DNA from: Candidatus Methylomirabilota bacterium
GTDB taxonomy: Bacteria > Methylomirabilota > Methylomirabilia > Rokubacteriales > CSP1-6
NCBI GenBank assembly: GCA_035650715.1
Contig: DASRHC010000004.1
Location: 85,160 to 149,159, forward strand
Length of the DNA: 64,000 nt
Direction of reading: 5' to 3'
The translations under genes and the position numbers were made by a program. Of the stretch, positions 24,874 through 41,989 are shown piece after piece. Within the stretch, counting starts at the first letter, position 1, and the number at the start of each line of letters is the position of its first letter. Under the pieces are notes generated by a model. It had not been told where the DNA came from. It saw nothing but the letters and a program-made list of their open reading frames with translations, and did no database searches.

Positions 24874-24926
24874 GTCAGTGGTCTCCCCGGTGGTGGTGCG
24901 GCGGTCCACCGTTTAGATCTTCAAGG

Positions 24927-25062
24927 CTCTTCAGCTGCGGGGGCCCAGAAATGGCCCCCGCACTCCCCCAGCCGGCGGACGACCGTCTACTTCTGAAACT
25001 CTTCAGCTGCGGGGGCCCAGAAATGGCCCGCGCACTCCCCCAGCCGGCGGACGACCGTCTGT
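24927..25062. repeat. Two tandem ~65-bp units, each with a perfect 9-bp-stem hairpin GCGGGGGCC-CAGAAAT-GGCCCCCGC
   Basis: Seen directly. Unit: CTCTTCAGCTGCGGGGGCCCAGAAATGGCCCCCGCACTCCCCCAGCCGGCGGACGACCGTCT. Lies in the 207-nt gap between the livF stop and the coxL start. A third inverted copy is at ~34963-35030. Confidence 0.85.
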
Positions 25063-25080
25063 GGCTCAGGTTCATGGTGG

Positions 25081-25771
<691 letters not shown>

Positions 25772-25785
<14 letters not shown>

Positions 25786-26542
25786 GCGCGCCCGATCCCA
25801 GGTAGGCCCGCACCACCTCGGGGTCCCGCTGCACCGTGGCGGGGTCGCCGTCGGCGATCAGGCGGCCGTAGTTGAGCACCAGCACCCGGTCGGAGATACC
25901 CATGACCAGGCGCATATCGTGCTCGACCAGGAACACGGTGACGCCGCCGTCCCGGATGCGCGCGATCAGCCCGGCCACCGTGGCCTTCTCCGAGGCGGTC
26001 ATCCCGGAGGCCGGCTCGTCGAGCAGCAGGAGCCGCGGCCGCGCCGCGAGCGCGACCGCCAGCTCCAGCAGGCGCTGCTCGCCGTAGGAGAGCCCGCCGG
26101 CGAGCTCGTCGCGGCGGCCGCCCAGCCCCACGAACTCGATCACCCGATCGGCCTCCTCCGCGAGGCGCCGCTCCTCCGCGCGCACCCGTGCGCGGGCCAG
26201 CAGCGCCGCGGCCACCCCGACGCGGCCCTGCAGGTGGAGGCCGGTGAGCACGTTCTCGCGCACGGTGAGCCCGGCAAACACGCTGGTCTTCTGGAACGTG
26301 CGCACCAGGCCGCGCGCCGCGATCCGATGCGGCCGCCAGCCGGTGATCACCTGGCCGTCGTGCCGGACGGTGCCCTGCGTCGGTCGCTGAAAGCCGGTGA
26401 TCACGTTGAACGCGGTGGTCTTCCCCGCGCCGTTGGGGCCGATCAGGCTCGTCACAGTGCCGGGCGCCACCTGGAAGCTCACGCCCGCCAGCGCCGCCAC
26501 GCCACCGAACCGCACGGTGAGGTCCCGGGCCTCGAGGATCAC
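25772..26542 (-). CDS. livG: Branched-chain amino acid ABC transporter ATP-binding protein (LivG type)
   Basis: GTG start overlaps the livM stop (GTGA). Has GPNGAGKTT and LSYGEQRLLELA. Confidence 0.9.
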
Positions 26543-27504
26543 GCGGGGGAAGCGCGCCGGTGGGGCTCGGGCCGGAGCCGGCGCAGGGCCGGCACGATCC
26601 CCTCCGGCAGGAAGAAGAGCACCGCGACCAGCAGGATGCCGTAGAGCAGCATCTGCCACTGCCACGAGGTGGCGGCCCGCAGCGCCTCGGGCAGCACCGT
26701 GAACAGCACCGCGCCCACCACCGGACCCGCGAGGGTGCCCTTGCCGCCGGCCACCACCATGATCACCATCGTGACCGTGTAGGTGAAGAGGAACACTTCC
26801 GGGCTGACGAAGCGCGTGTAGTGGGCGTAGAGGCCGCCCCCGAAGCCGGCCATGGCGGCGCTGATCACCGCGGCCAGCACCAGGTAGTGGGTGCCGTCGA
26901 TGCCCACCGAGGCGGCCAGCGTCTCGTTCTCCCGCAGCGCGACCAGGGCCCGCCCCACCCGCGAGCGGATCAGCGCGAGGCACAGGAGGTACGCGAGCAT
27001 CACCGCAAGGAGCACCACGTAGTAGAACGCGGTCTTGCTGCGCAGCGGCAGCGCGGGCAGCCCGGGCAGCGCGATCTCGAGCGCGGGGACGCCGGGCAGC
27101 CCCAGCGGCCCGTTGGTCAGATCCATCCAGTTCACGCTCACCAGCGACACGCAGCCCGCGAACGAGATCGTGAGCAGCACGAAGTACGCCCCGCGCAGCT
27201 TGAGCGCGAGCCGCCCGATGACCCAGCCCGCCACCCCGGGCAGCACGATGGCGGCCAGGAGCCCGATCCACGGCGAGCAGCCGCCCTTCACGGAGAGCAG
27301 CGCGGTGGCGTAGGCGCCGATGCCGAAGAACGCGGCGTGGCCGAGCGAGAGCTGGCCGGTGTAGCCGAGCAGGAGGTTCAGGCTGAGGGCCAGCACCGCG
27401 AAGATGCCGGCCATGATCAGCGTGTGCAAGTGGTACGGGTTCCACACCCAGAGCGGCGCGGTGACCGCCACCGCGAGGCCGATCACGAACGCGAGCCGCC
27501 TCAT
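26539..27504 (-). CDS. livM: Branched-chain amino acid ABC transporter permease (LivM type)
   Basis: Starts MRRLAFVIGLAVAV inside ORF 26539..28068. Strongly hydrophobic. Confidence 0.85.
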   Translation of the reverse strand: MRRLAFVIGLAVAVTAPLWVWNPYHLHTLIMAGIFAVLALSLNLLLGYTGQLSLGHAAFFGIGAYATALLSVKGGCSPWIGLLAAIVLPGVAGWVIGRLALKLRGAYFVLLTISFAGCVSLVSVNWMDLTNGPLGLPGVPALEIALPGLPALPLRSKTAFYYVVLLAVMLAYLLCLALIRSRVGRALVALRENETLAASVGIDGTHYLVLAAVISAAMAGFGGGLYAHYTRFVSPEVFLFTYTVTMVIMVVAGGKGTLAGPVVGAVLFTVLPEALRAATSWQWQMLLYGILLVAVLFFLPEGIVPALRRLRPEPHRRASPA

Positions 27505-28373
27505 CCCACCCGCTCCGCGCGCGCGAAAATGCCGGAGGGCCGCAGCAGCAGGACGGCCACGATCATGAGGAAACCGACCGCGTCGCGGTAGCCGGAGGAG
27601 ACGTAGCCCGCGCCCAGCTCCTCGGCCACGCCCAGCACCAGGCCGCCCAGCGCGGCGCCCGCGAAGTTGCCGAGGCCGCCCAGGATCACCACCGAGAAGG
27701 CCTTCAGCGAGGCGAGATCGCCCATCGACGGATAGAGCAGGAACACCGGACCGAGCAGCGCGCCCGCGGCGGCGGCGAGCCCGGCCCCGAACGCGAACGT
27801 GATGGTGTGGATGCGCTCGATGCTCACGCCCATCAGGGCCGCGGTCTCCCGGTCCTGGAAGGTGGCGCGCATGGCGCGCCCGAGCTTGGTGCGCGCCAGC
27901 AGCAGGTGGGCGCCCAGGATCAGGCCCGCGGACACCACGAAGACGAACACCCGTAGCGGCGCCACCGACACCGGGCCAAGCACGAGCGGCTGGGTGGGGA
28001 ACGGGGTGGGCACGCTCCTGGCCACCCCGCCCCAGCCGAGCAGCTCCGCGTTCTGCATGGCGATCCACACCCCGATCATCACCAGCATCACGGTGTCGAT
28101 GGACTGCCCGCGGAGCGGTCGCAGGAGCAGGCGCTCGCAGATCGCGCCCGCGCCGGCGCCGGCCACGATCGCGAGCGGGATCGCCAGGAAGAAGTGGACC
28201 GACGCGAGCGCGAGGGCGGCGAACGCGGCGTAGGCCCCGAGCGTGTAGAACTCGCCGTGGGCGAAGTTCACCACGTTCATGAGGCCGAAGACCAGCGTCA
28301 GGCCGATGCCGAGCAGGCTGTACGTGGCCCCCAGCAGCAGCCCGTTCAGCAGGTGCTGGAGTAGCTGGTCCAA
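27501..28373 (-). CDS. livH: Branched-chain amino acid ABC transporter permease (LivH type)
   Basis: 290 aa, MDQLLQHLLNGLLLGATYSLLGIGLTLVFG. Confidence 0.85.
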   Translation of the reverse strand: MDQLLQHLLNGLLLGATYSLLGIGLTLVFGLMNVVNFAHGEFYTLGAYAAFAALALASVHFFLAIPLAIVAGAGAGAICERLLLRPLRGQSIDTVMLVMIGVWIAMQNAELLGWGGVARSVPTPFPTQPLVLGPVSVAPLRVFVFVVSAGLILGAHLLLARTKLGRAMRATFQDRETAALMGVSIERIHTITFAFGAGLAAAAGALLGPVFLLYPSMGDLASLKAFSVVILGGLGNFAGAALGGLVLGVAEELGAGYVSSGYRDAVGFLMIVAVLLLRPSGIFARAERVG

Positions 28374-28395
28374 GCGCTCGCGATCGTGGCCCGCG

Positions 28396-29568
28396 CTACT
28401 TCTTCACGAACGCGGGAAGCGCGATCTTGCCGTCCTTGACCTGGACGATGAAGATGCTCGGCTTGGACTGGCCGCTCTCCTTGCCGGCCGGGCCGTCCTT
28501 CTCGAACTTGATCGGCCCGTTGAGCCCCATCAGGTTCACCTTCCAGAGCGCCTGCTGCACCGCCTTGGGGTCGGCCTTGCCGGCCACCCGAATGCCCTCG
28601 ACCGCGGTGAGGATGCCGTCGTGACCGCGGAAGCCCTCGGTCAGGCCCTCGAAGGGATGACCGCGCTTGGCCCACTCGTCCACGAACGCCTTCGCGAGCT
28701 TGCCGTCCGGCATCGCCTCGGGGAACCAGGGCAGGAAGAACAGGATGTGGTAGGTGCCCTCCGCGGCCGCGCCGGCCTGCTTGATCAGCTGGCTGGGCGA
28801 CGAGCTGCCGCCGGTGGTGATCACCTTGCGGGTGAGCCGCTGCTCCTGCGCCTGCTTCAGCACCAGGGTGATCTGCTCCACGCTGGTGGTGAGGAACAGG
28901 GTGTCGGCCGAGCCCGCCTTCACCTTGGTGATCTGCGCGTTCATGTCGGTGGCGGCCTGGTCCATGAACTCCACCGCGCCCACCGACGCGCCCGACTTCT
29001 TGAGAAGGTTGCCGAACGCGGTGACCGAGCCGCGGCCCCAGTCGGTGTTGACGGCGAGGAAGTCGGCCTGCTTGATGCCGAAGTCCTTCAGGTACTTCTC
29101 GAGGCCGAGGGCCTCCATCTCGCTCGGGGGGCTGATGCGGAAGATCCAGGGGTTGCCGCTCTTGGTGATGCTGGCCGCGCTCGAGGTCTCCACCACCATC
29201 GGCACGCCGTACTCCTCGAGCTTCGGCATGGCGGCGAGCGTCATCGAGCTGCCCCAGGCCCCCATGATCACCGGCACCTTGTCCCGCACGATCAGCTTCT
29301 CGGCGGCGGTGGCGGCCTCCTTCGGGTCCGACTTGTTGTCCTCGATGAGGAGCTCGATCTTGCGTCCGAGCACGCCGCCCTTGGCGTTGATCCAGTCGCG
29401 CGCGATCTCGGCGCCCATGCGCACGTAGTTGCCGGAGGCCGCCACCGGGCCCGACAGGGGCTCGATCACGCCGATCTTCACCGTCTCCTGCGCCCACGCG
29501 GTGGGAGCGCCGAGGGCGAACAGCACGGCCAGCGCCACGGACAGGGCTCGGATTGCTCGCGTCATCAC
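28396..29568 (-). CDS. Periplasmic substrate-binding protein of the Liv-type ABC transporter (LivK/LivJ family, ligand unknown)
   Basis: 390 aa with signal peptide MMTRAIRALSVALAVLFALGAPTAWA and a type I PBP fold. Confidence 0.85.
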   Translation of the reverse strand: MMTRAIRALSVALAVLFALGAPTAWAQETVKIGVIEPLSGPVAASGNYVRMGAEIARDWINAKGGVLGRKIELLIEDNKSDPKEAATAAEKLIVRDKVPVIMGAWGSSMTLAAMPKLEEYGVPMVVETSSAASITKSGNPWIFRISPPSEMEALGLEKYLKDFGIKQADFLAVNTDWGRGSVTAFGNLLKKSGASVGAVEFMDQAATDMNAQITKVKAGSADTLFLTTSVEQITLVLKQAQEQRLTRKVITTGGSSSPSQLIKQAGAAAEGTYHILFFLPWFPEAMPDGKLAKAFVDEWAKRGHPFEGLTEGFRGHDGILTAVEGIRVAGKADPKAVQQALWKVNLMGLNGPIKFEKDGPAGKESGQSKPSIFIVQVKDGKIALPAFVKK

Positions 29569-29686
29569 CGATCTCCTCTGGCCCGGTCACCCGCTCGGGG
29601 GCCGGGGCCCTTCTCCTGGTTTGGACTGCGCCGCCACGCTGCGGTGGTTTCTGGAATCGCGCACTTATCCTACATTTCATGGAACG

Positions 29687-29741
29687 TGTCAAATGAAAAC
29701 CCGATTGACAACGTCGATTCGCGCGCCAAGAATACGGCGCC
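29687..29741 (+). promoter_or_regulatory. Sigma-70-like promoter with an overlapping inverted repeat (candidate GntR autoregulatory operator)
   Basis: TTGACA, a 17-nt spacer, then AAGAAT, 8 nt before the gntR ATG (near-leaderless). The inverted repeat TGTCAA-N12-TTGACA overlaps the -35. Confidence 0.4.
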
Positions 29742-30437
29742 ATGTCCCCGTCTCGCTCCACCGCCCCGCGGGCGGCGATCGCTCCGCTTCTCCACGAGAG
29801 CCTGGGCGAGCGCGTCTACCGCACCGTGCGCGACCTCATCCTGAGCCAGGTCTTCCCGCCCGGCTCGAAGCTGAACGTGGAGCAGCTCTGCCGCGACCTC
29901 GGGGTGAGCCGGACCCCGGTGTGGGACACCATGCGCCGCCTGGAGAGCGAGGGACTGGTCAACACGGTCGCCCGGCACGGGGTGTTCGTGCTGAACTACG
30001 GCGACGCGCAAATCCGCGACCTCTTCGCGGTGCGCGGGGCCCTCGAGGCCCTCGCGGTGCGGCAGGCCGCCGCCAACCCCGACGCGCGCGCGCTCCTCGA
30101 GCCGGCGATGAAGGAGATGGAGGAGGCGGTGGCGGCGGGCGCGATCGAGCAGTACTCGCGCGCGGCCATCGACTTCCACGACCGCATGCTGATGGCGGCG
30201 CGGAACCAGGTGCTCGGCCGGCTGCTGGAGAACGTCTACGCGCAGATCCTGGTGCTGCGCCTGCGCTCGCTCTACCTGCCCGAGCGTCTCGCGTCGAGCG
30301 TGGCCGAGCACCGCGCACTGTTCGAGGCGGTGGGGGCCGGCGACGGCGAGGGCGGCGAGCGGCTGGCCCGCTCCCACGCCGATCACGTGCTGCAGGACGC
30401 GCTCGAGTTCACGCGCCGGGCCGAGCAGGAGCGGTGA
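29742..30437 (+). CDS. GntR-family transcriptional regulator (FadR/FCD subfamily)
   Basis: 231 aa with an N-terminal wHTH (RVYRTVRDLILSQVFPPGSKLNVEQLCRDLGVSRTPVWDTMRRLESEGLV) and an FCD C-terminal domain. Confidence 0.85.
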   Translation: MSPSRSTAPRAAIAPLLHESLGERVYRTVRDLILSQVFPPGSKLNVEQLCRDLGVSRTPVWDTMRRLESEGLVNTVARHGVFVLNYGDAQIRDLFAVRGALEALAVRQAAANPDARALLEPAMKEMEEAVAAGAIEQYSRAAIDFHDRMLMAARNQVLGRLLENVYAQILVLRLRSLYLPERLASSVAEHRALFEAVGAGDGEGGERLARSHADHVLQDALEFTRRAEQER

Positions 30438-31107
30438 GCGGCCGGCTCGATGGCAGCGCGATCGTGGTCACCGGAGGCGCGGCCGGGCTCGGGCTGGCCT
30501 ACGCCCGCCGCTTCGTGCGCGAGGGGGCGTGCGTGTTCCTGGCCGACATCGTGGATCCGGCCCCCGCGGTCGCGAGCCTCGACGCGGGGGATCGCGCGGC
30601 CGGCTGCCGGGTCGACGTGGCCTCGTCCGCCTCGGTGGACGCGATGGTGGCCGCCGCGCTGCGCCACCTCGGGCGTATCGACGTGCTGGTGAACAATGCG
30701 GCGGTCTTCGCGACCCTCACCCCGAAGCCGTTCGAGACCATTCCGGAGGAGGAGTGGGACCGGGTCATGGCGGTCAACGTGCGCGGCATGTGGAACTGCG
30801 TGAAGGCGGTCACTACGTGGCGTCCAAGGGTGCGGTGATCGCCATGACCCGCGCGCTCGCCCGCGAGCTGGGCGACGACGGCATCGCGGTCAACGCGGTG
30901 GCGCCTGGCCTGATCCTGAGCGACACCGTGCGAGCCAATCCGGCGGTCACCGGCTTCCAGGCCGCGAGCGTGCTCCAGTCCCGCGCCTTCAAGCGGGAGG
31001 CGCTGCCGGAGGACGTGGAGGGCGCGGTGGTGTTTCTCGCCTCGTCGGACAGCGCCTTCATGACCGGCCAGACGCTGGTCGTCGACGGCGGATCGGTGTT
31101 CGTCTAG
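30434..31107 (+). pseudogene. SDR-family oxidoreductase disrupted by an internal ~85-nt deletion or frameshift
   Basis: GTG start overlaps the gntR stop (GTGA). The N-terminal part (IVVTGGAAGLG...VLVNNAA...NVRGMWNCVKAV) is in the frame of ORF 29429..30838. The C-terminal part (HYVASKGAVIAMTRALARELG...GGSVFV) is in the frame of ORF 30529..31107. About 28 residues around the catalytic Ser are missing between them. Confidence 0.5.
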
Positions 31108-31114
31108 GCCCGCC

Positions 31115-32128
31115 GTGCTGACCACCGTCCCCGTCATCGACATCGCCCCGTTCGCCCCCGGTGCGCACGGCCCTGCCGCGGCGCGCGACGCGGTCGCGAG
31201 GGCGGTGGATGAGGCCTGCCGCGACATCGGCTTCTTCACGATCGCCGGACACGGGGTGCCGCCCGCGCTGGTCGATCGCATGCTGGAGACCTCGCGCGCC
31301 TTCTTCGACCGGCCGCTCGAGGAGAAGCAGCGGGTCGCGCGCCCGCGTCCGGAGCAGAGCCGCGGCTACATCGCGCTCGGCGCGGAGAACCTCTCCTACA
31401 GCCGGGGCGACGCCTCCACTACCGATCTGAAGGAGTTCTTCGCCATCGGCCCGGTGGACGTGCCCGACGACGAGTATCACCGGCGGCCGGAGGCCTACCC
31501 GTCGTTCGCGCCTAACCTCTGGCCCGAGCGGCCCGCGGACCTCCGGGCGGTGTGGACGGAGTACTACCGCACGATGGAGGCGCTGGCCGGGCGCCTCATG
31601 GCCATCTTCGCGCGGGCCCTCGATCTGCCCGAGGACTACTTCCGCCGCTTCATCGAGCGCCACATCAGCGGCATCCGGGCCAACCACTACCCCGAGCAGG
31701 TGGAACCGCCCGCCCCGGGGCAGATCCGCGCCGGCGCGCACACCGACTACGGCGCGGTCACCATCCTGCTGCCCGAGAACGTGCCGGGGCTGCAGGTGCT
31801 GAACCGCGCCGGGGTCTGGACCGACGTGGTGGCCCCACCCGGCACCTTCGTCTGCAACATCGGCGATCTCATGCAGCACTGGACCAACGACCGGTGGATC
31901 TCCACCATGCACCGGGTGGTGAACCCGCCGCGCGAGGCGGCGGCCGGCAACCGGCGTCTGTCGATCCCGTTCTTCTTCCAGCCCAACTACGACGCCGTCA
32001 TCGAGTGCCTGCCCACCTGCTGCGGACCCGACCATCCGCCGCGCTACGAGCCGGTCACCTCCGGCCGGCACCGGCTCACCAAGTTCCTGCGGGGCGTCGG
32101 CGCGACCGCGCCGGGCCTCCGAGGCTGA
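31115..32128 (+). CDS. 2-oxoglutarate/Fe(II)-dependent oxygenase (isopenicillin N synthase family)
   Basis: 337 aa: the DIOX_N-like VPVIDIAP, and the HxD...H facial triad (HTDYG...H). Confidence 0.85.
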   Translation: MLTTVPVIDIAPFAPGAHGPAAARDAVARAVDEACRDIGFFTIAGHGVPPALVDRMLETSRAFFDRPLEEKQRVARPRPEQSRGYIALGAENLSYSRGDASTTDLKEFFAIGPVDVPDDEYHRRPEAYPSFAPNLWPERPADLRAVWTEYYRTMEALAGRLMAIFARALDLPEDYFRRFIERHISGIRANHYPEQVEPPAPGQIRAGAHTDYGAVTILLPENVPGLQVLNRAGVWTDVVAPPGTFVCNIGDLMQHWTNDRWISTMHRVVNPPREAAAGNRRLSIPFFFQPNYDAVIECLPTCCGPDHPPRYEPVTSGRHRLTKFLRGVGATAPGLRG

Positions 32129-32132
32129 CGCC

Positions 32133-33191
32133 ATGACCACCGATCGCTCGCCCCAGTGGGACCGCTACGCCACCGCGCTGTCCTCCATCGCCGCCGCGGT
32201 GGGCCGCACCCCGCTGGTGCGCCTCAATCGCCTGACCCGCGACCTCCGGCCCGCGATCTACGTCAAGGTGGAGTGGTACGGGGCGACCGGGAGCCTCAAG
32301 GACCGCATCTACCTCCACATGTTCGAGCGGGCCGAGGCGCGCGGCGACCTCAAGCCGGGCATGCAGGTGCTCGAGTGCTCCACCGGGAATGCGGGCATCG
32401 CGTGCGCGTGGGTCTCGGCGGTGAAGGGCTATCCGTGCACGATCGTGATGCCGGAGGGGATGAGCGACGAGCGCAAGAAGATCATGCGCGCCTACGGCGC
32501 CGAGCTGGTGTTCACGCCCGGCGGGGAGAGCGACGTGGACCTCTCGCTCGAGCGCCTCCGCGCCATCCGCGACGCGGCGCCCGGCCGCTACTGGGTGCCG
32601 GGCCAGTTCGACAACCCGGACAACGTGGAGGCCCACGTCCTCAGCACCGGTCCCGAGCTCTGGGAGCAGTCGGGCGGGCGCATCGGGGCGTTCGTGGACT
32701 CGCAGGGCTCGGGCGGCCTGCTCACCGGGGTGGGCCGCTACCTGCGCAGCCGCGATCCCCAGGTGAAGCTCTACGCGGTGGAGCCGGCGGAGTGCGCGCT
32801 GCTGTCGCGGCGGGCGTGGGGGCACCACGGCATCGAGGGCATCGGCGACGGCTTCGTGCCCCGCAATCTCGACGTCTCCCTGCTCACCGGCGTGATCACC
32901 ACCACCACCGAGGAAAGCGTGGACATCGCGCGCCGCCTCGCCCGCGAGGAAGGCATCTTCTGCGGGATCTCGAGCGGCTGCAACGTGGCCGCCGCGCTCA
33001 AGCTGGCCCGCCGCCATCCCGAGCTGCCTTCGGTGGTGACGGTCATCAACGACACCGGCCAGCGCTACTTCACCACCCCGCTCTGCGGGGAAGCCAAGCA
33101 CGTGGAGATCCCCGAGCGCGAGCATCCGCTCGACCCCTACACCGTGGAGCAGCTGGACCGCTACCAGAAGGGCTGGGAGGTGCTCGCGTGA
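32133..33191 (+). CDS. PLP-dependent cysteine synthase / cystathionine beta-synthase family enzyme (CysK-like beta-replacement enzyme)
   Basis: 352 aa: the Lys motif GATGSLKDR, STGNAG, and the GISSG loop. Confidence 0.85.
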   Translation: MTTDRSPQWDRYATALSSIAAAVGRTPLVRLNRLTRDLRPAIYVKVEWYGATGSLKDRIYLHMFERAEARGDLKPGMQVLECSTGNAGIACAWVSAVKGYPCTIVMPEGMSDERKKIMRAYGAELVFTPGGESDVDLSLERLRAIRDAAPGRYWVPGQFDNPDNVEAHVLSTGPELWEQSGGRIGAFVDSQGSGGLLTGVGRYLRSRDPQVKLYAVEPAECALLSRRAWGHHGIEGIGDGFVPRNLDVSLLTGVITTTTEESVDIARRLAREEGIFCGISSGCNVAAALKLARRHPELPSVVTVINDTGQRYFTTPLCGEAKHVEIPEREHPLDPYTVEQLDRYQKGWEVLA

Positions 33192-34150
33192 CGATCGCGC
33201 CGCGCGAGTACGACTTCGAGGCGGCGCGCCGCCGGCTCGAGGCCAAGCCGAAGGCGGCGGGGCCGAAGCTCGTGTCGCTGGAGGCGGCGGCCGCGCTGAT
33301 CAAGGACGGCGACCACGTGGCCATCGGCGGCTGCCTCTACTCGCGCACGCCCCTGGCCCTCGTCTGGGCGCTCCTGCGCCGGCGGCCGCGCCACCTCACC
33401 TTCTCGCGGAACCTGATGTGCTACGAGGGCGAGTGGGGCATGGTGGCGGGCGCGGTGGACAAGGTCGTCACCTCGTGGATGGGCATCGGGCTGCCGTGGG
33501 GGCTCTCGCGCATCCAGCGGGAGTTCGTGGAGGCCGGCCGCGTGGAGTTCGAGGAGTGGAGCCACCTGGGTTTGGGCCTCCGCTACCGCGCGGCCGCGAT
33601 GGGCGTGCCCTTCCTGCCGTCGCTCACCATGCTGGGCTCGGGGCTGATGGGCGTGGGCGGCTCCCGGATGGTGGAGTGCCCGTACACCGGCGCGCGCCTC
33701 CACGCGGTCCCGGCGCTCTTCCCGGACGTGGCGATCATCCACGTGCAGCGGGCCGACCGTCTCGGCAACTGCCAGATCGACGGCTACCCCCACATGGACG
33801 GCGACATCGCCCGCGCCGCCTCCACCGTCCTGGTGACCGCGGAGGAGATCGTGGACGAGGACGAGATCCGGCGGCACGGCGATCGCACCGTGATCCCCGG
33901 ATTCACCGTGGACGCCGTCGCCCACGTGCCGTACGGCTCCTACCCGCACGAGTGCTACGGGGCCTACGACTCCGAGCCCGAGCACTTCACCACGTACGTC
34001 GAGGCGATCCAGCAGCGCGGGGCCGGCGGCGTCGCGGACTACCTCGAGCGCTACGTCTACGCGCCCGGCAGCCACGCCGAGTACCTGGCCCTGTTCGGGG
34101 AATCCCGTCTCGCCCGAGCGGCCGAGCGGGGCCGGATGCTGACGACGTGA
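33188..34150 (+). CDS. CoA-transferase subunit A (glutaconate/3-oxoacid CoA-transferase family)
   Basis: GTG start overlaps the upstream stop (GTGA). C-terminal 320 aa of ORF 32156..34150. Confidence 0.8.
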   Translation: MTIAPREYDFEAARRRLEAKPKAAGPKLVSLEAAAALIKDGDHVAIGGCLYSRTPLALVWALLRRRPRHLTFSRNLMCYEGEWGMVAGAVDKVVTSWMGIGLPWGLSRIQREFVEAGRVEFEEWSHLGLGLRYRAAAMGVPFLPSLTMLGSGLMGVGGSRMVECPYTGARLHAVPALFPDVAIIHVQRADRLGNCQIDGYPHMDGDIARAASTVLVTAEEIVDEDEIRRHGDRTVIPGFTVDAVAHVPYGSYPHECYGAYDSEPEHFTTYVEAIQQRGAGGVADYLERYVYAPGSHAEYLALFGESRLARAAERGRMLTT

Positions 34151-34908
34151 GCGTGACCGCGAGCGAGCTGCTGGCCGTGATGGGGGCCCGCGAGCTGCGG
34201 GACAACACGACCGTGTTCACGGGAGTGGGCGCACCGATGATGGCCTCGGTGCTCGCCCAGCGCTCGCACGCCCCCGGCCTCACCATGATGGTGGAGGGTG
34301 GGGTCATCGGCCCGATGTGGAAGCCGGGGGAGCTGCCGATCTCCACCAACGAGATGCGCGCGGCGTACCGGGCCCAGGCGCTGCCCGGCATCACCGACGC
34401 CTTCCTGCTCGCCCAGCGCGGCTTCTTCGACGTGGGCTTCATCGGGGGCGCCCAGATCGACCGCCACGGCAACCTCAACACCAGCGCCATCGGCGGCTAC
34501 GCCCGGCCCAAGGTCCGGCTGCCCGGCAGCGGGGGCGCCAACGACATCATCTCGCTCTGTCGCGAGGTGATGATCCTGACCGTGCACGAGAAGCGCCGGT
34601 TCACCGAGCGGGTGGACTTCGTGACCAGCCCCGGCTACCTGGAGGGCGGCGACGCCCGCCGGCGCCACGGCCTGCTCTTCGGCGGCGTCTCCCGCCTGAT
34701 CACCACCCTGGGCATCTTCGGCTTCGACAACGAGGACCACCGCATGGAGGTCCTGGCCCTGCATCCGGGCTGCACCCTCGAGCAGGTCCGCGAGCACACC
34801 GGCTTCGAGGTCCTGGTGAGCCCCAGGCTCACGACGACAAAGCCGCCCACGGACGAGGAGCTCGCCATCCTTCGCATGCTGGACCCAGCGCGCCAGTTCA
34901 TAGGATGA
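34147..34908 (+). CDS. CoA-transferase subunit B
   Basis: GTG start overlaps the subunit A stop (GTGA). Subunit-B-like blocks: GVGAPMMASVLAQ, and GGAQIDRHGNLN. Confidence 0.8.
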   Translation: MSVTASELLAVMGARELRDNTTVFTGVGAPMMASVLAQRSHAPGLTMMVEGGVIGPMWKPGELPISTNEMRAAYRAQALPGITDAFLLAQRGFFDVGFIGGAQIDRHGNLNTSAIGGYARPKVRLPGSGGANDIISLCREVMILTVHEKRRFTERVDFVTSPGYLEGGDARRRHGLLFGGVSRLITTLGIFGFDNEDHRMEVLALHPGCTLEQVREHTGFEVLVSPRLTTTKPPTDEELAILRMLDPARQFIG

Positions 34909-34962
34909 CCACATGCCCGATCGCCCAGCGAGTCCGCGTACGACCAATCACCGGCCGAATCC

Positions 34963-35030
34963 ACAGTCGGTTGTCCGCCGGCTGGGGGAGTGCGGGGGCC
35001 ATTTCGGGGCCCCCGCAGCTGAAGAGCTTG
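34963..35030. repeat. Third, inverted copy of the 65-bp hairpin repeat seen at 24927-25062
   Basis: The reverse complement matches the tandem units: CTCTTCAGCTGCGGGGGCCCCGAAATGGCCCCCGCACTCCCCCAGCCGGCGGA. Lies between the CoA-transferase B stop and the LLM start. Confidence 0.8.
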
Positions 35031-35067
35031 AGGAAGCAGACGGTAGCCCGCTTTCGGCGAACAGGAG

Positions 35068-36012
35068 GTGCCGCCCGTGACCGACTTCGGCCTCGCCATT
35101 CGCAACTTCGTGGGCCCCGGCGAGGTGCCGGACATCCCTGCGCTCTACGCCTACGCCGAGCGCGCGGAGGCCCTCGGCTTCGAGTCCCTGTGGGCGTGGG
35201 ACCACGTCCTGCTGGGCGTGGAGCCCTCGTTCCCCATCGTGGACTCCATCACCATGCTGGGCGCGGTGGCGGCGCGCACCCGCACCATCAAGCTGGGCAC
35301 CGGGGTCCTGGTGCTGCCGCTGCGCAATCCGGTGGTGGCGGCCAAATCGCTCGGCAGCCTCGACGTGATCTCGGGAGGCCGCCTCGTCCTGGGCGTGGCC
35401 GCGGGCTGGTATGCGCGCGAGTTCGACGCGGTGGGCGTGCCGTTCAAGCAGCGCGGCCGCCAGTTCGAGCGGAACCTCGACATCCTGATGCGTCTCTGGA
35501 CCGAGGAGCGCGTCACCCTCAAGGTGGACGAGTTCAACCTGCGGGAGGCGGTGATGGTTCCCCGCACCGTGCAGCGCCCGCGCCCGCCAGTCCTGATCGG
35601 CGGCTACGTGGACGCGGTGCTCAAGCGCGCGGGCACCCGGGGAGACGGCTGGCTCACCTACTTCTACACCCCGGAAAGCTTCACCCGGGGGTGGGAGAAG
35701 GTGAAGGCCTTCGCCCGGGAGGCGGGCCGCGATCCCCGCACTCTCACCGCCACCAACCAGCTCGCGATCTACGTGGGGCGCTCGCGGCAGGAGACCGCCG
35801 CCGACATGCGCCAGTGGCTGTCCACCGAGTGGGATACCGCGGCGTGGAGCGAGTCCACCATCGACCACGCCGTGCACGGGTCCGCCGCCGAGTGCGTCGA
35901 GCAGCTGCGCGCCCACGTGCGGACGGGCGTGCATCGGATTATCCTGATCCCGTACCGTTACCAGGCCGAGCAGGTCGAGCGCATCGCCAAGGAGGTCTTG
36001 CCCAAGCTATGA
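35068..36012 (+). CDS. LLM-class (luciferase-like monooxygenase), F420/flavin-dependent oxidoreductase
   Basis: 314 aa with a TIM-barrel LLM signature: LGFESLWAWDH, LGTGVLVLPLRNPVVAAK. Confidence 0.85.
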   Translation: MPPVTDFGLAIRNFVGPGEVPDIPALYAYAERAEALGFESLWAWDHVLLGVEPSFPIVDSITMLGAVAARTRTIKLGTGVLVLPLRNPVVAAKSLGSLDVISGGRLVLGVAAGWYAREFDAVGVPFKQRGRQFERNLDILMRLWTEERVTLKVDEFNLREAVMVPRTVQRPRPPVLIGGYVDAVLKRAGTRGDGWLTYFYTPESFTRGWEKVKAFAREAGRDPRTLTATNQLAIYVGRSRQETAADMRQWLSTEWDTAAWSESTIDHAVHGSAAECVEQLRAHVRTGVHRIILIPYRYQAEQVERIAKEVLPKL

Positions 36013-36797
36013 GCCAGCCCGTCTACATCGACATCAACTGCGACATGGGGGAGAGTTACGGCCGCTGGACCCTCGGGAACGACGAGGAGGTCATGCCGAA
36101 CATCACCTCGGCCAACATCGCGTGCGGCTTCCACGGGGGCGACCCGCACGTGATGCGGCGCACCGTGGAGCTGGCGCTCCAGCACGGCGTGGCGGTGGGC
36201 GCCCACCCGGGCCTGCCCGACCTGATGGGCTTCGGCCGCCGGCGCATGGAGGTCTCGCCGGCCGAGCTGAAGGACTACCACCGCTACCAGATCGGGGCGC
36301 TCTCCGCCTTCGCCAAGGCCGCGGGGACCAAGGTGCAGCACGTGAAGCCCCACGGCATCCAGTACCACATGTTCGAGGAGAACCTCGCGCTCGCGCGGGC
36401 CACCGCCGAGCAGGTGCTCGAGCTGGATCCCGAGCTGATCCTGATGACGATGGCCATGACCAAGTACGATGCCGAGGCCCGCAAGGTGAAGGGCCTCCGC
36501 GTCGCGGCGGAGGGCTTCGCGGACCGGGTGTACGCCGACGACGGCCAGCTCGTGTCCCGCAGGCTCGGCAAGGACGCGCTGATCACCGACCCGTCCAAGG
36601 CCGCCGACCAGGCGGTGCGCATGGCCATGGAGGGCAAGGTGCGCACGATCACCGGCAAGGTCATCGACGCGCACGTGCAGACCATCTGCATCCACGGCGA
36701 CAGCCCGGGCTCGGACAAGATCGTGGCCGCGGTGCGTGACGGCCTGGTGAAGGCCGGCGCCACCGTGAAGCCGCTGCGCGACTGGCTTCCCCGCTGA
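36009..36797 (+). CDS. pxpA: LamB/YcsF-family protein (5-oxoprolinase subunit A, PxpA-like)
   Basis: ATG overlaps the LLM stop (ATGA). Has MSQPVYIDINCDMGESYG and ACGFHGGDP. Confidence 0.85.
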   Translation: MSQPVYIDINCDMGESYGRWTLGNDEEVMPNITSANIACGFHGGDPHVMRRTVELALQHGVAVGAHPGLPDLMGFGRRRMEVSPAELKDYHRYQIGALSAFAKAAGTKVQHVKPHGIQYHMFEENLALARATAEQVLELDPELILMTMAMTKYDAEARKVKGLRVAAEGFADRVYADDGQLVSRRLGKDALITDPSKAADQAVRMAMEGKVRTITGKVIDAHVQTICIHGDSPGSDKIVAAVRDGLVKAGATVKPLRDWLPR

Positions 36798-37260: not shown

Positions 37261-37599
37261 ATGATGCTCACCGAACGCACCAGCGGGAACGCGACGCTTC
37301 GCCTGCTCGCCGGATCGGGGTACCGGCGCGAGCCCAGCGCCATGCCGTCGGATTCGCAGATCGCCCACGCCCTCTACGACGCGCAGAGCGTTCCCGGCAT
37401 GCGGAAGAGCTTCGACGAGATCCTCTTCATGGGCCAGCACAGCACGGGCTGGACGCAGGTCTTCAAGCAGCTGAAGTCGGAAGGCCTCATCGAGGAGCAG
37501 ACCCTCGGTCACGTGGTGGCGCGGTGGACCAACCGCACCGTCCGGAGCCGCCGGCCCGCGATCGCTCCCGCCGACCTCGCGGTCGGCGCGTCCGCCTAG
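37261..37599 (+). CDS. Hypothetical small protein
   Basis: Starts MMLTERTSGN with a GGGGAGGAA RBS 7 nt upstream. Non-biased composition. No family recognised. Confidence 0.4.
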   Translation: MMLTERTSGNATLRLLAGSGYRREPSAMPSDSQIAHALYDAQSVPGMRKSFDEILFMGQHSTGWTQVFKQLKSEGLIEEQTLGHVVARWTNRTVRSRRPAIAPADLAVGASA

Positions 37600-37617
37600 C
37601 CTCCCGTCGTCCCGGCG

Positions 37618-38637: not shown

Positions 38638-38655
38638 AACCTCATCGCACCCCGC

Positions 38656-40308: not shown

Positions 40309-40350
40309 GCTAGCCTCGGCCCGCGGGCAGGTGCACGACCGCCCGGCACC

Positions 40351-41978: not shown

Positions 41979-41989
41979 GGCCGCGGCGC

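What the first reader, a model, noticed from the sequence alone, without database searches (positions are those of the whole stretch)
31115..36797. Six-gene plus-strand operon: 2OG/Fe(II) oxygenase, CysK-like PLP enzyme, CoA-transferase A and B, LLM oxidoreductase and an orphan PxpA/LamB
Four of the five junctions overlap (GTGA/ATGA). The fourth junction holds one copy of the 65-bp hairpin repeat. An IPNS-family oxygenase with a beta-replacement PLP enzyme suggests synthesis or modification of a non-proteinogenic amino acid. PxpA/LamB normally works with PxpB/PxpC in 5-oxoprolinase but is alone here with an LLM-family enzyme. LamB/YcsF proteins are also linked to lactam utilisation. The combination is not a described pathway.
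Basis: inference. Interest (0 to 1): 0.55.

Follow-up and report, generated by a model that had tools for sequence, protein, structure and literature searches.

The report
Conserved N-heterocycle breakdown gene cluster
The six genes are real and co-transcribed, but they most likely belong to a larger, widely conserved and uncharacterised gene cluster for taking up and breaking down a nitrogen-ring carboxylic acid, not for making an unusual amino acid.

Summary
Three of the five junctions overlap, not four. The hairpin repeat is real.

Comparison with about 70 related loci from at least six phyla changes the unit. The invariant core is a glutaconate-type CoA-transferase (A and B subunits) plus an F420-class LLM oxidoreductase. 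This core sits repeatedly next to:
- a three-subunit molybdenum hydroxylase (window 21183-24912, minus strand);
- an importer;
- a fold-type-II PLP enzyme, either a distinct CysK-like clade with a conserved C-terminal tail or, in actinomycetes, a diaminopropionate ammonia-lyase;
- a cyclic-amide hydrolase: PxpA, PxpA with PxpB, hydantoinase A/B, creatininase or DUF6282.

The 2OG oxygenase and a decayed SDR gene occur only in the closest Rokubacteria.

Best reading (inferred): a catabolic pathway for a heteroaromatic carboxylate. It would run through CoA activation, Mo-dependent hydroxylation, F420H2-dependent ring reduction, lactam or ureide opening, and PLP-dependent beta-elimination. The substrate is unknown. 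I found no paper describing this cluster. Cultured actinomycetes carry a version of it, so it can be tested.

The parts
21183..21674 (-). Small [2Fe-2S] subunit of the molybdenum hydroxylase (CoxS-like)
   Evidence: The translation carries the two Cys-rich ferredoxin motifs (printout). It is 41-76% identical to the neighbouring gene in other loci. The corresponding genes in L075-L078 are annotated Fer2/Fer2_2. The window copy itself was not scanned with Pfam.
21671..22540 (-). FAD-binding medium subunit of the molybdenum hydroxylase (CoxM-like)
   Evidence: Pfam FAD_binding_5 6.3e-44 and CO_deh_flav_C 5.6e-23.
22537..24912 (-). Molybdopterin large subunit (CoxL / quinoline-oxidoreductase-like), not a CO dehydrogenase
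   Evidence: Pfam Ald_Xan_dh_C, MoCoBD_1 and MoCoBD_2. Best solved relatives are CoxL 8uem (1.7e-159), quinoline 2-oxidoreductase 1t3q (2.5e-153) and 6-hydroxypseudooxynicotine dehydrogenase 7dqx. It scores below every NCBIfam cut-off. No AYxCSFR or AYRGAGR motif was found. A hydroxylase large subunit lies within 10 kb of the CoA-transferase in 35 of 67 loci.
24926..25064 (-). Two tandem copies of the ~60-nt hairpin repeat, between the hydroxylase and the ABC transporter genes
   Evidence: (family D16, 98% identical).
25081..29568 (-). Liv-type ABC importer: two ATPases, two permeases and a Peripla_BP_6 binding protein (28396-29568)
   Evidence: Pfam. Gene calls on the identical contig L001. 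The binding protein is 83-95% identical next to the cluster in Rokubacteria loci.
29705..29733 (+). Sigma-70-like promoter match (TTGACA-17-AAGAAT) in the divergent intergenic region
   Evidence: one match found against 0.2 expected. This is a consensus match only.
29742..30437 (+). GntR/FCD transcription regulator, probably the first gene of the plus-strand unit
   Evidence: Pfam GntR + FCD. Its stop overlaps the SDR start (GTGA). Present in 18 of 67 loci, all in the close subclade.
30434..31107 (+). Short-chain dehydrogenase pseudogene (85-bp frameshifting deletion)
   Evidence: Sequence inspection. The gene is split in all six independent assemblies. Alignment with the intact copies in L020 and L024 shows an 85-bp deletion that removes the catalytic-Ser region.
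31115..32128 (+). G1: 2OG/Fe(II) oxygenase, an accessory gene found only in the closest subclade
   Evidence: Pfam. The HxD...H triad and RxS motif are visible in the sequence. Best solved relatives are an ethylene/succinate-forming-type enzyme 9ovh (8.5e-53) and thymine dioxygenase 5c3p (2.1e-42). Present in 14 of 67 loci.
32133..33191 (+). G2: CysK-like fold-type-II PLP enzyme of a distinct, cluster-linked clade with a ~30-aa C-terminal extension
   Evidence: Scores just below the cysK/cysKM cut-offs. The PLP-lysine motif SLKDR is kept, the Asn loop reads STGNAG, and the tail ...VPEREHPLD..QLDRYQ..WE is shared with the Dehalococcoidia cluster copies and with P0241. Only one full-length 50%-cluster representative is close (60% identity, 490 bits). 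Canonical CysK proteins score 294 bits or less.
33188..34150 (+). G3: CoA-transferase subunit A, glutaconate CoA-transferase type
   Evidence: Pfam CoA_trans. GctA 1poi_A 7.1e-40. Far below the PcaI and AtoD cut-offs. Found in all 67 related loci because it was the search query.
34147..34908 (+). G4: CoA-transferase subunit B, with the catalytic glutamate retained
   Evidence: GctB 1poi_B 3.2e-40. Query MMVEGGV aligns with GctB IIVESGL, the position I recall as catalytic Glu54. Present in 63 of 67 loci.
34975..35035 (+). One copy of the hairpin repeat in the G4/G5 spacer
   Evidence: The RNA fold shows a 9-10 bp GC stem, but the z-score is only -1.6. The element is absent from this junction in L010 and L016, where the gap is only a few nt.
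35077..36012 (+). G5: LLM-class oxidoreductase, TIGR03619 (F420-dependent family)
   Evidence: NCBIfam 201.8 bits against a cut-off of 166.9. The best solved relative is F420-dependent Mer (4e-19). Present in 60 of 67 loci.
36009..36797 (+). G6: PxpA / LamB-YcsF lactamase-type subunit
   Evidence: Pfam 2e-94. NF003814 scores 333 bits against a cut-off of 226. PH0986 1v6t 8.3e-76. Present in 30 loci, all Rokubacteria-type, and independently next to the LLM gene in Pseudonocardia acaciae L075.
37261..37599 (+). Small conserved ORF (112 aa) downstream, no family match; membership uncertain
   Evidence: Called in L001-L007. 77-85% identical in the close subclade. No Pfam hit.

Best explanation
The six genes are the enzymatic half of a catabolic island that spans about 21183-36797.

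The island contains:
- a three-subunit molybdenum hydroxylase;
- a Liv-type ABC importer;
- a GntR/FCD regulator;
- a decayed SDR gene;
- a 2OG oxygenase;
- a CysK-like PLP enzyme;
- a glutaconate-type CoA-transferase (A and B subunits);
- an F420-class LLM oxidoreductase;
- PxpA.

Proposed mechanism. All steps are inferred from enzyme families and conserved gene neighbourhoods.
1. A heteroaromatic carboxylic acid is imported.
2. The CoA-transferase converts it to its CoA thioester.
3. The molybdenum hydroxylase adds an oxo group next to the ring heteroatom. This creates an unsaturated lactam or cyclic ureide.
4. The LLM enzyme uses F420H2 to reduce the ring double bond, which is conjugated to the thioester.
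5. The CoA is passed on to the next substrate molecule.
6. PxpA opens the resulting 5-oxoproline-like ring. Other lineages use PxpA with PxpB, hydantoinase A/B, creatininase-family or DUF6282 enzymes at this step.
7. The PLP enzyme eliminates the beta substituent from the beta-substituted alanine that results. This gives pyruvate and ammonia, or cysteine if sulfide is added.

The 2OG oxygenase, and formerly the SDR, would be a lineage-specific feeder step that oxidises a side chain to the carboxylate.

The candidate substrate class that accounts for the most components is an azole-4-carboxylate or imidazolone-4-carboxylate, possibly derived from a purine. It would pass through 2-oxoimidazolidine-4-carboxylate to albizziine or 2,3-diaminopropionate. 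Pyrrole-2-carboxylate, passing through 5-oxoproline to glutamate, is the main alternative.
For: Shown by tool results:
1. Deep synteny. CoA-transferase A, B and the LLM gene are adjacent in essentially all of 67 loci from Methylomirabilota/Rokubacteria, Binatia, Dehalococcoidia and other Chloroflexota, Acidobacteria, Dormibacterota, ANGP1 and Actinomycetota. The same holds in four further actinobacterial loci. Gene order is rearranged in some loci (L009, L028, L031, L032, L034, L037, L067), yet linkage is kept.
2. A three-subunit XDH/CoxL-family hydroxylase flanks the core in 35 of 67 loci and in all five actinobacterial loci examined. In actinomycetes it lies in the same operon.
3. The PLP position is filled either by the CysK-like clade (46 loci) or, in actinomycetes, by a diaminopropionate ammonia-lyase family protein (NF006058, 348.7 bits against a cut-off of 276). 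Both are fold-type-II enzymes that act at the beta carbon of an alanine derivative.
4. The ring-opening position is filled by different enzymes in different lineages:
- PxpA in Rokubacteria;
- PxpA with PxpB in Pseudonocardia L075, and PxpB-like genes in L039 and L040;
- hydantoinase A/B (the oxoprolinase/caprolactamase family) in L054, L056, L062 and L073;
- creatininase-family proteins in L057, L062 and L063;
- DUF6282 in actinomycetes and L060.
5. The context is catabolic. The clusters carry ABC or NCS1 (Transp_cyt_pur) importers and GntR/FCD, IclR or PucR regulators.
6. G4 keeps the catalytic glutamate of GctB. G5 passes the F420-LLM family cut-off.

Precedents from the literature:
- 2-Furoate is degraded as its CoA thioester. 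A molybdenum-dependent furoyl-CoA dehydrogenase hydroxylates it, and the lactone is then hydrolysed to 2-oxoglutaroyl-CoA (PMC3223595).
- The reductive urate pathway combines an XDH homologue, a ring reductase, cyclic amidohydrolases, albizziin and diaminopropionate intermediates, and the PLP lyase YgeX. Chloroflexota variants have an F420 luciferase-family enzyme in place of the reductase (PMC12507026).
Against: - No substrate, intermediate or activity has been measured. The order of steps and the direction of the LLM reaction are guesses.
- The window's hydroxylase large subunit is only about 30-34% identical to the one in the actinobacterial, Binatia and Dehalococcoidia clusters. The association may therefore involve different hydroxylases with different substrates.
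- Several core-containing loci show no hydroxylase or PLP gene within 10 kb, for example L043, L047, L052 and L055. Contig ends explain only some of these cases.
- The window has no carbamoylase, so the imidazolone route requires the CysK-like enzyme to expel urea directly. That activity is undocumented for this clade.
- PxpA is only known to work together with PxpB and PxpC and with ATP (my knowledge of the family). Neither partner is in the window.
- Some CysK-like copies in other phyla just pass the cysK cut-off (L058 and L060). An ordinary cysteine synthase role is therefore not excluded.
Confidence: 0.55

Rival explanations
1. Biosynthesis or tailoring of a non-proteinogenic amino acid. 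The 2OG oxygenase and the beta-replacement PLP enzyme would build a modified amino acid, and the other enzymes would process it.
For: CysK-family enzymes do make non-protein amino acids. O-ureidoserine synthase DcsD is among the solved relatives (3x43, 5.6e-66). G1 is an intact IPNS-family oxygenase.
Against: - The oxygenase is absent from 32 of the 46 loci that carry the CysK-like gene, and from every non-Rokubacteria locus.
- The cluster is flanked by importers, not exporters.
- It is controlled by GntR/FCD, IclR or PucR regulators.
- It travels with a molybdenum hydroxylase and with lactam-opening enzymes.
- None of the ORFs I scanned in the window or in selected loci matched an NRPS, ATP-grasp ligase or resistance-gene family.
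Confidence: 0.07
2. Ordinary housekeeping genes that happen to be neighbours: CysK for cysteine synthesis, PxpA for 5-oxoproline repair, and a generic CoA-transferase and oxidoreductase.
For: - G2 is about 44-47% identical to the two canonical-length CysK-like representatives I aligned (P0260, P0273) and keeps the PLP-binding residues.
- G6 is a typical PxpA.
- The L058 and L060 copies just pass the cysK cut-off.
Against: - Start/stop overlaps are conserved, and linkage survives rearrangement across phyla.
- G2 belongs to a compact clade with its own C-terminal extension. That clade is separated from canonical CysK by a drop from 490 to 294 bits.
- An ammonia-lyase fills the PLP position in actinomycetes.
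- Two different oxoprolinase-type systems fill the PxpA position.
Confidence: 0.1
3. Catabolism of a sulfur heterocycle such as thiophene-2-carboxylate, thiazole-4-carboxylate or 2-oxothiazolidine-4-carboxylate. The CysK-like enzyme would capture released sulfide or desulfurise the cysteine formed.
For: - The logic of CoA activation followed by molybdenum hydroxylation matches the thiophene-2-carboxylate pathway. 2-Oxothiazolidine-4-carboxylate is a known 5-oxoprolinase substrate. Both points come from my own knowledge and were not tested here.
- CysK-family enzymes handle sulfide and cysteine; NCBIfam lists a weak match to a cysteine desulfhydrase.
Against: The actinobacterial clusters use a diaminopropionate ammonia-lyase family enzyme at the same position. 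That points to a nitrogen substituent at the beta carbon, not sulfur. PucR regulators and NCS1 nucleobase/hydantoin-type permeases also point to N-heterocycles.
Confidence: 0.1
4. A variant of the already described reductive urate (2,8-dioxopurine) pathway.
For: It shares the same kinds of parts: an XDH-family enzyme, a ring reductase, cyclic amidohydrolases and a PF00291 PLP lyase. F420 luciferase-family reductases are reported in Chloroflexota variants. PucR regulators and NCS1 transporters occur in the actinobacterial loci (PMC12507026).
Against: - The marker enzyme SsnA, and YgfK/UacX, YgeW/UacY, YgeY and carbamate kinase, were not found in any window ORF scanned.
- The published pathway uses no CoA; the paper contains no occurrence of the term. 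The CoA-transferase is the most conserved part here.
Confidence: 0.1

Closest known systems
2-Furoate (Trudgill/Hmf) pathway: furoyl-CoA synthetase, molybdenum furoyl-CoA dehydrogenase HmfABC, lactone hydrolysis, 2-oxoglutaroyl-CoA thioesterase
   Same: A heteroaryl carboxylate is handled as a CoA thioester. A three-subunit XDH-family molybdenum enzyme hydroxylates the ring, and the ring is then opened by hydrolysis to a C5 dicarboxylyl-CoA. That product is the kind of acid a glutaconate-type CoA-transferase accepts (PMC3223595).
   Different: Here a CoA-transferase stands in place of the ligase and thioesterase. An F420-class LLM oxidoreductase, a PLP enzyme and PxpA are added. The window's large subunit was not compared with HmfA.
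Reductive urate / 2,8-dioxopurine pathway (XdhD, YgfK or UacX, SsnA, HyuA, YgeW/UacY, YgeY, YgeX)
   Same: An XDH homologue, reductive dearomatisation, cyclic amide hydrolysis, albizziin and 2,3-diaminopropionate intermediates, and a terminal fold-type-II PLP lyase. Chloroflexota variants have an F420 luciferase-family reductase (PMC12507026).
   Different: That pathway has no CoA-transferase. SsnA, YgeW, YgeY and carbamate kinase are absent here. In the window the PLP enzyme is CysK-like, not a diaminopropionate ammonia-lyase. The ring-opening enzyme is PxpA, not a dihydropyrimidinase-type HyuA.
PxpABC 5-oxoprolinase
   Same: G6 is a clear PxpA-family protein: NF003814 above the cut-off and 8.3e-76 to PH0986. 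Relatives L075, L039 and L040 carry PxpB-like genes beside the cluster.
   Different: There is no pxpB or pxpC in the 64-kb window. G6 is translationally coupled to an LLM oxidoreductase. It scores below the equivalog cut-off (295 against 392).
Glutaconate CoA-transferase GctAB (Acidaminococcus fermentans), with its relatives AibAB and IpdAB
   Same: Two subunits of matching size, best solved matches 1poi_A (7e-40) and 1poi_B (3e-40), and the catalytic glutamate conserved.
   Different: The genomic context is entirely different. There are no hydroxyglutarate-pathway genes. The substrate is unknown.
O-acetylserine sulfhydrylase CysK and related beta-replacement enzymes (CysM, DcsD, SbnA, beta-cyanoalanine synthase)
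   Same: Same fold and PLP-binding residues. E-values to many CysK structures range from 1e-79 to 1e-60.
   Different: G2 scores below the cysK and cysKM cut-offs. Its Asn loop is altered, and it has a conserved 30-aa C-terminal extension. It forms a separate clade and sits inside a catabolic operon.

Membership tests
CysK (O-acetylserine sulfhydrylase A, TIGR01139 / cysKM TIGR01136) | Score at or above the curated family cut-off | tested here: not met
   319.8 bits against 350.95 (cysK) and 329.4 against 344.15 (cysKM). The Dehalococcoidia and ANGP1 cluster copies just pass.
CysK (O-acetylserine sulfhydrylase A, TIGR01139 / cysKM TIGR01136) | PLP-binding lysine (SxKDR), glycine-rich phosphate loop and the Ser that contacts the pyridine N | tested here: met
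   SLKDR, GSGGLLTG and GISSGC align with the canonical positions.
CysK (O-acetylserine sulfhydrylase A, TIGR01139 / cysKM TIGR01136) | Canonical substrate (Asn) loop TSGNTG and a length of about 300-325 aa with no C-terminal extension | tested here: not met
   The loop reads STGNAG. The protein is 352 aa and has a 30-aa tail...VEIPEREHPLD..., conserved in the clade.
CysK (O-acetylserine sulfhydrylase A, TIGR01139 / cysKM TIGR01136) | Makes cysteine from O-acetylserine and sulfide | not testable with these tools
   Needs an enzyme assay or complementation.
PxpA (5-oxoprolinase subunit A, LamB/YcsF) | Family profile match above the cut-off | tested here: met
   Subfamily NF003814: 333.3 bits against 226. 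Pfam LamB_YcsF: 2e-94. The equivalog NF003813 scores 295.1 against 392, which is not met.
PxpA (5-oxoprolinase subunit A, LamB/YcsF) | Encoded together with PxpB (CT_C_D) and PxpC (CT_A_B) | tested here: not met
   No such domain was found in any window ORF scanned. The rest of the genome is unknown. PxpB-like genes are present beside the cluster in L075, L039 and L040.
PxpA (5-oxoprolinase subunit A, LamB/YcsF) | ATP-dependent hydrolysis of 5-oxoproline | not testable with these tools
   Needs an assay.
Family I CoA-transferase, glutaconate CoA-transferase subfamily | Adjacent A (~320 aa) and B (~255 aa) subunits, both with the CoA_trans domain, closest to GctA and GctB | tested here: met
   Pfam 1.3e-28 and 2.5e-24. 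1poi_A 7.1e-40 and 1poi_B 3.2e-40.
Family I CoA-transferase, glutaconate CoA-transferase subfamily | Catalytic glutamate in the B subunit | tested here: met
   Query VEGG aligns with GctB VESG. The residue identity (Glu54) comes from my knowledge of GctB.
AtoDA / PcaIJ 3-oxoacid CoA-transferases (housekeeping alternative) | Score at or above the curated cut-offs | tested here: not met
   42.5 bits against 128.5 (PcaI/ScoA), 36.5 against 315 (AtoD) and 45.4 against 243.55 (PcaJ/ScoB).
F420-dependent LLM oxidoreductase (TIGR03619, Rv2161c family) | Score at or above the curated cut-off | tested here: met
   201.8 bits against 166.9. The Saccharopolyspora orthologue scores 182.9.
F420-dependent LLM oxidoreductase (TIGR03619, Rv2161c family) | Uses F420/F420H2, and the organism makes F420 | not tested
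   No F420 biosynthesis gene was recognised among the window ORFs scanned. The rest of the genome is not available.
2OG/Fe(II) oxygenase, DIOX_N/IPNS-type | Both Pfam domains, the HxD...H iron triad and the RxS 2OG-binding motif | tested here: met
   Pfam 2.7e-30 and 3.2e-21. HTD, a downstream H (STMHRV) and RLS are visible in the sequence.
Aerobic CO dehydrogenase (CoxL form I or II) | Active-site loop AYxCSFR (form I) or AYRGAGR (form II), and a family score above the cut-off | tested here: not met
   Neither motif was found. Scores are 776.6 against 950 and 566 against 991.
Reductive urate (2,8-dioxopurine) gene cluster | SsnA marker amidohydrolase with YgfK or UacX, YgeW/UacY, YgeY and YgeX | tested here: not met
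   None of these families appears among the window ORFs scanned. A YgeX-type lyase is present only in the actinobacterial versions.

The most novel reading that the evidence does not exclude
The cluster encodes an undescribed pathway for azole or imidazolone carboxylates, possibly purine-derived, that depends on both CoA and F420. Three points would be new:
- A glutaconate-type CoA-transferase would activate the ring acid so that an F420H2-dependent LLM enzyme can reduce it.
- A PxpA would open a 5-oxoproline analogue, such as 2-oxoimidazolidine-4-carboxylate, without PxpB or PxpC.
- A dedicated CysK-clade enzyme would work in reverse of its usual role, as a C-N lyase that expels urea or ammonia from albizziine or diaminopropionate.
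Probability: 0.2. Interest if true: 0.75.

Novelty: new variant of a known kind. Interest (0 to 1): 0.55.

Why it matters
If the reading is right, this is a widespread and unstudied route by which abundant uncultured soil and ocean bacteria mineralise nitrogen-ring compounds. The lineages include Rokubacteria/Methylomirabilota, Binatia, Dehalococcoidia and Dormibacterota, plus cultured actinomycetes.

It would:
- assign a physiological role to an F420-class LLM family;
- assign a role to a CysK-like clade that annotation pipelines name 'cysteine synthase';
- explain PxpA genes that lack adjacent partners;
- add a CoA-transferase-driven variant to the short list of pathways in which molybdenum hydroxylases act on CoA thioesters.

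Pseudonocardia acaciae and Saccharopolyspora elongata carry versions of the cluster, and Tamaricihabitans halophyticus has a 65%-identical CoA-transferase A whose gene context could not be retrieved. The hypothesis can therefore be tested in culture.

Tried and rejected
- Literature. Seven full-text searches covered isonicotinate/citrazinate, glutaconate CoA-transferase with molybdenum hydroxylase and luciferase-like enzymes, DUF6282, pyrrole-2-carboxylate, and F420 with CoA transferase and the XDH family. None found a paper on this cluster. One search was spoiled because 'CoA' matched 'coated'.
- Asn loop as a clade signature. Rejected. The loop reads STGNAG in Rokubacteria, S/TTGSTG in Dehalococcoidia and TTGNTG in ANGP1. 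The C-terminal extension is the shared character.
- Downstream minus-strand block as part of the pathway. Rejected. The block (glycosyltransferase, TPP enzyme, reductase, second LLM, aldolase-SDR fusion; 37618-44155) is conserved only within the close Rokubacteria subclade. TPP enzymes near other loci are only 26-30% identical.
- CO dehydrogenase reading of the hydroxylase. Rejected on motif and score.
- AtoDA/PcaIJ reading of the CoA-transferase. Rejected on score.
- AibAB- or IpdAB-like non-transferase reading. Considered unlikely, because G4 keeps the catalytic glutamate.
- Technical failures. A fuzzy-regex scan for the hairpin timed out and was replaced by blastn-short. The context look-up for the Tamaricihabitans protein P0212 returned nothing.
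- RNA folding of the hairpin copies. Z-scores ranged only from -0.35 to -1.64. Folding energy alone does not set the copies apart in this GC-rich background.

Full report
**What is in the window**

The window is 72% G+C, so mechanical ORF lists are unreliable. I called genes from third-position GC and from start/stop inspection. Six plus-strand genes fill 31115-36797:

| Gene | Coordinates | Family |
|---|---|---|
| G1 | 31115-32128 | 2OG/Fe(II) oxygenase |
| G2 | 32133-33191 | CysK-like PLP enzyme |
| G3 | 33188-34150 | CoA-transferase subunit A |
| G4 | 34147-34908 | CoA-transferase subunit B |
| G5 | 35077-36012 | LLM oxidoreductase |
| G6 | 36009-36797 | PxpA |

G5 passes the curated cut-off of the F420-dependent TIGR03619 family. 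G6 passes a PxpA subfamily cut-off.

The junctions are as follows:
- G1/G2: a 4-nt spacer
- G2/G3: GTGA overlap
- G3/G4: GTGA overlap
- G4/G5: a spacer of about 160 nt
- G5/G6: ATGA overlap

Three junctions overlap, not four.

The hairpin repeat in the long spacer is real. Three copies lie in the window, against 0.09 expected by chance. All three have the same orientation relative to local transcription. The element recurs at the same two junctions in related genomes but is missing from some. It behaves like a small, mobile, REP-like intergenic element and not like an operon boundary.

**The unit extends upstream**

A GntR/FCD regulator (29742-30437) precedes G1. Its stop overlaps the start of a short-chain dehydrogenase gene. 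Compared with the intact copies in L020 and L024, this dehydrogenase carries an 85-bp frameshifting deletion that removes the catalytic-serine region. Another relative has an independent 96-bp deletion, and others lack the gene altogether. The split is present in all six independent assemblies that carry the identical PLP protein.

The only sigma-70-like promoter match in 29400-37700 sits just upstream of the regulator.

Divergently transcribed are a Liv-type ABC importer (25081-29568) and, beyond it, a three-subunit XDH/CoxL-family molybdenum hydroxylase (21183-24912).

**Origin**

Proteins 83-94% identical to G2 come from soil metagenomes and from MAGs labelled Methylomirabilota or Rokubacteria.

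**Synteny**

Contexts of two 83-85% identical PLP proteins already showed that the conserved set is importer + PLP + CoA-transferase A/B + LLM + PxpA. The oxygenase is absent from both, and one locus has the genes in a different order.

I then scanned one genome per species with an alignment of the CoA-transferase A subunit. This returned 65 loci. Tblastn of the window proteins, and of accessory proteins, against these loci gave the counts below.

| Gene | Loci with the gene, of 67 |
|---|---|
| CoA-transferase A | 67 |
| CoA-transferase B | 63 |
| LLM oxidoreductase | 60 |
| CysK-like PLP enzyme | 46 |
| Hydroxylase large subunit | 35 |
| PxpA | 30 |
| GntR regulator | 18 |
| 2OG oxygenase | 14 |

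Many loci are cut by contig ends, so these counts are lower bounds.

- The CoA-transferase/LLM triad occurs in Methylomirabilota, Binatia, Dehalococcoidia and other Chloroflexota, Acidobacteria, Dormibacterota, ANGP1 and Actinomycetota.
- PxpA is confined to the Rokubacteria-type loci.
- The oxygenase and the regulator are confined to the closest subclade.

An all-against-all ORF clustering showed the three hydroxylase subunits beside the triad in several phyla.

**Accessory genes in other lineages**

Pfam and NCBIfam on genes that recur near the triad gave:
- hydantoinase A and B, the family of 5-oxoprolinase, N-methylhydantoinase and caprolactamase (L054, L056, L062, L073);
- creatininase-family proteins (L057, L062, L063);
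- an arylmalonate-decarboxylase / Asp-Glu-hydantoin-racemase-like protein;
- DUF6282;
- DUF1989;
- M20 peptidases;
- IclR regulators.

A second homologue search and context look-ups in Actinomycetota revealed a very regular operon. It reads PucR regulator | LLM - CoA-transferase A - B - racemase/decarboxylase-like - hydroxylase M - S - L - (CoxG) - PALP - DUF6282, often with an NCS1 nucleobase/hydantoin-type permease.

In these actinobacterial operons the PALP protein is not CysK-like. It belongs to the diaminopropionate ammonia-lyase family (348.7 bits against a cut-off of 276).

Pseudonocardia acaciae has PxpA - LLM - CoA-transferase A - B, with a divergent PxpB gene and a hydroxylase operon with PucR nearby. 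PxpB-like genes also lie directly after the LLM gene in L039 and 7 kb downstream in L040.

**The individual proteins**

- *G3/G4.* They are closest to glutaconate CoA-transferase (1poi: 7e-40 and 3e-40) and far below the AtoDA and PcaIJ cut-offs. G4 keeps the catalytic glutamate.
- *G2.* It retains the PLP-binding residues but falls just short of the cysK cut-offs. It shares a roughly 30-aa C-terminal extension (...VPEREHPLD...) with the cluster-linked copies from Dehalococcoidia. In a library of 1.84 billion 50%-identity representatives, only one full-length protein is close (60% identity, 490 bits, same tail). After it, scores drop to 294 bits or less for canonical CysK proteins. G2 is therefore a distinct clade, not a housekeeping CysK by these criteria.
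- *G1.* It has an intact iron triad. Its nearest solved relatives are an ethylene/succinate-forming-type oxygenase and fungal thymine 7-hydroxylase.
- *Hydroxylase large subunit.* It is closest to CoxL-like and quinoline-oxidoreductase-type enzymes. It lacks the CO-dehydrogenase active-site motifs and passes no curated family cut-off.
- *PxpB/PxpC.* No such domain was found in any window ORF scanned.

**Interpretation**

What is shown is the anatomy and the conservation. The mechanism is inferred. The recurring parts are:
- an importer and a catabolic-type regulator;
- a molybdenum hydroxylase;
- a CoA-transferase for dicarboxylate-like acids;
- an F420-class reductase;
- an enzyme from one of several lactam- or ureide-opening families;
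- a fold-type-II PLP enzyme that acts at the beta carbon of an alanine derivative.

This fits the breakdown of a heteroaromatic carboxylic acid.

Two published pathways supply the logic.
- 2-Furoate is degraded as a CoA thioester. A molybdenum furoyl-CoA dehydrogenase hydroxylates it, and the ring is then hydrolysed to 2-oxoglutaroyl-CoA (PMC3223595).
- The reductive urate pathway combines an XDH homologue, a ring reductase and cyclic amidohydrolases. It passes through albizziin and 2,3-diaminopropionate and ends with the PLP lyase YgeX. Its Chloroflexota variants have an F420 luciferase-family enzyme in place of the reductase (PMC12507026).

That pathway uses no CoA and depends on SsnA. SsnA is absent here, so this cluster is not simply that pathway.

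**Candidate substrates**

The route that uses every Rokubacterial enzyme starts from an azole- or imidazolone-4-carboxylate.
1. The acid is activated with CoA.
2. It is hydroxylated at C2.
3. The C4=C5 bond is reduced.
4. The product is 2-oxoimidazolidine-4-carboxylate, a 5-oxoproline analogue.
5. PxpA opens the ring to a ureido- or amino-alanine.
6. The PLP enzyme cleaves that product to pyruvate.

This route also accounts for the actinobacterial ammonia-lyase, the hydantoin-type accessory enzymes, and the PucR and NCS1 context.

Pyrrole-2-carboxylate, going through 5-oxoproline to glutamate, explains PxpA/PxpB and hydantoinase A/B even more directly. It leaves the PLP enzyme without a role.

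I put about 0.55 on the general catabolic mechanism and no more than about 0.2 on any specific substrate.

The 2OG oxygenase, and formerly the SDR, is best seen as a lineage-specific feeder. It may oxidise a methyl or hydroxymethyl side chain to the carboxylate, as thymine 7-hydroxylase does. This is inference only.

**Caveats**

- The window's hydroxylase is only about 30-34% identical to those in the actinobacterial, Binatia and Dehalococcoidia clusters.
- Some triad loci show neither a hydroxylase nor a PLP gene within 10 kb.
- The window has no carbamoylase.
- PxpA has no local partners.
- Some CysK-like copies in other phyla just pass the cysK cut-off.

**Verdict**

The claim that this is not a described pathway stands as far as I could search.

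The biosynthetic interpretation is not supported. The six-gene set is also not the conserved unit. It is the Rokubacterial form of a widespread, uncharacterised catabolic cluster whose core is the CoA-transferase and the F420-class LLM enzyme, together with a molybdenum hydroxylase, a PLP enzyme and a ring-opening hydrolase.

I rate it a new variant of a known kind of system (CoA-dependent heteroaromatic acid catabolism initiated by a molybdenum hydroxylase). Interest is moderate (0.55). Cultured actinomycetes carry versions of the cluster, which makes it experimentally tractable.

Noticed in passing
window 30434-31107: The short-chain dehydrogenase gene is a pseudogene. Relative to intact copies (L020, L024) it has an 85-bp deletion that removes the catalytic-Ser region and shifts the frame. 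L017 has an independent 96-bp deletion at a slightly different place. L010-L012 lack the gene. This looks like repeated, independent loss of an accessory gene.
   Followed up: yes
window 10798-10865, 13622-13710, 46601-46692, 53193-53282: A second repeat family, unrelated to the GC-rich hairpin. It is a low-GC, near-perfect palindrome (GGGGTCAGGTCTTACATTCCGACATT ... AATGTCGGAATGTAAGACCTGACCCC) present four times in intergenic positions (families D6 and D7).
   Followed up: no
window 24926-25064 and 34975-35035; L011, L012, L013, L016, L018-L025, L072: The ~60-nt GC-rich hairpin element varies in copy number between species at the same two junctions. L012 has two copies at the CoA-transferase/LLM junction and a run of partial copies at the other junction. 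It is absent from the junction in L010 and L016. It behaves like a REP-like mobile intergenic element.
   Followed up: partly
L015, L017, L019, L020, L022, L024, L037, L038: Contigs carrying a cluster 84-89% identical to the Rokubacteria version are filed under MAGs named Dormiibacterota, Deferrimicrobiaceae, Acidoferrum, Verrucomicrobiia, Limnocylindria, Binatia and even the archaeon Nitrosotalea (a 285-kb contig). Binning errors in that MAG set seem more likely than lateral transfer.
   Followed up: no
window 37618-44155 (minus strand): A block of glycosyltransferase, TPP-dependent enzyme, FAD/NAD reductase, a second LLM oxidoreductase and a class-II aldolase-SDR fusion. It lies next to the cluster only in the close Rokubacteria subclade. 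Function unknown.
   Followed up: partly
window 35077-36012, 41049-42038, 51577-52989: Three luciferase-like (LLM) oxidoreductase paralogues lie within 17 kb. The window also carries two acyl-CoA dehydrogenases, a family III CoA-transferase, an enoyl-CoA hydratase and two AMP-binding ligases. This is a region rich in CoA-dependent catabolism.
   Followed up: no
window 3-5110 (minus strand): A RecA-like small protein (4430-5110; PF00154, 1.1e-12) lies next to an ORF with a weak impB/mucB/samB match (3120-4433; E = 0.0019) and a 1039-aa ORF running off the window start. The layout resembles an ImuA-ImuB-DnaE2 mutagenesis cassette. The large ORF was not scanned.
   Followed up: no
L009 5200-6300: In this long-read contig the binding-protein gene of the linked ABC importer is broken into several frames. 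This is either a pseudogene or indel errors in the assembly.
   Followed up: no
L007 12875-13711: A methyltransferase gene is inserted between CoA-transferase B and the LLM gene. This is the same junction that holds the hairpin repeat in the window, so the junction is a hot spot for insertions.
   Followed up: no
window 37261-37599: A 112-aa ORF downstream of PxpA is conserved at 77-85% in the close subclade but matches no Pfam family.
   Followed up: partly
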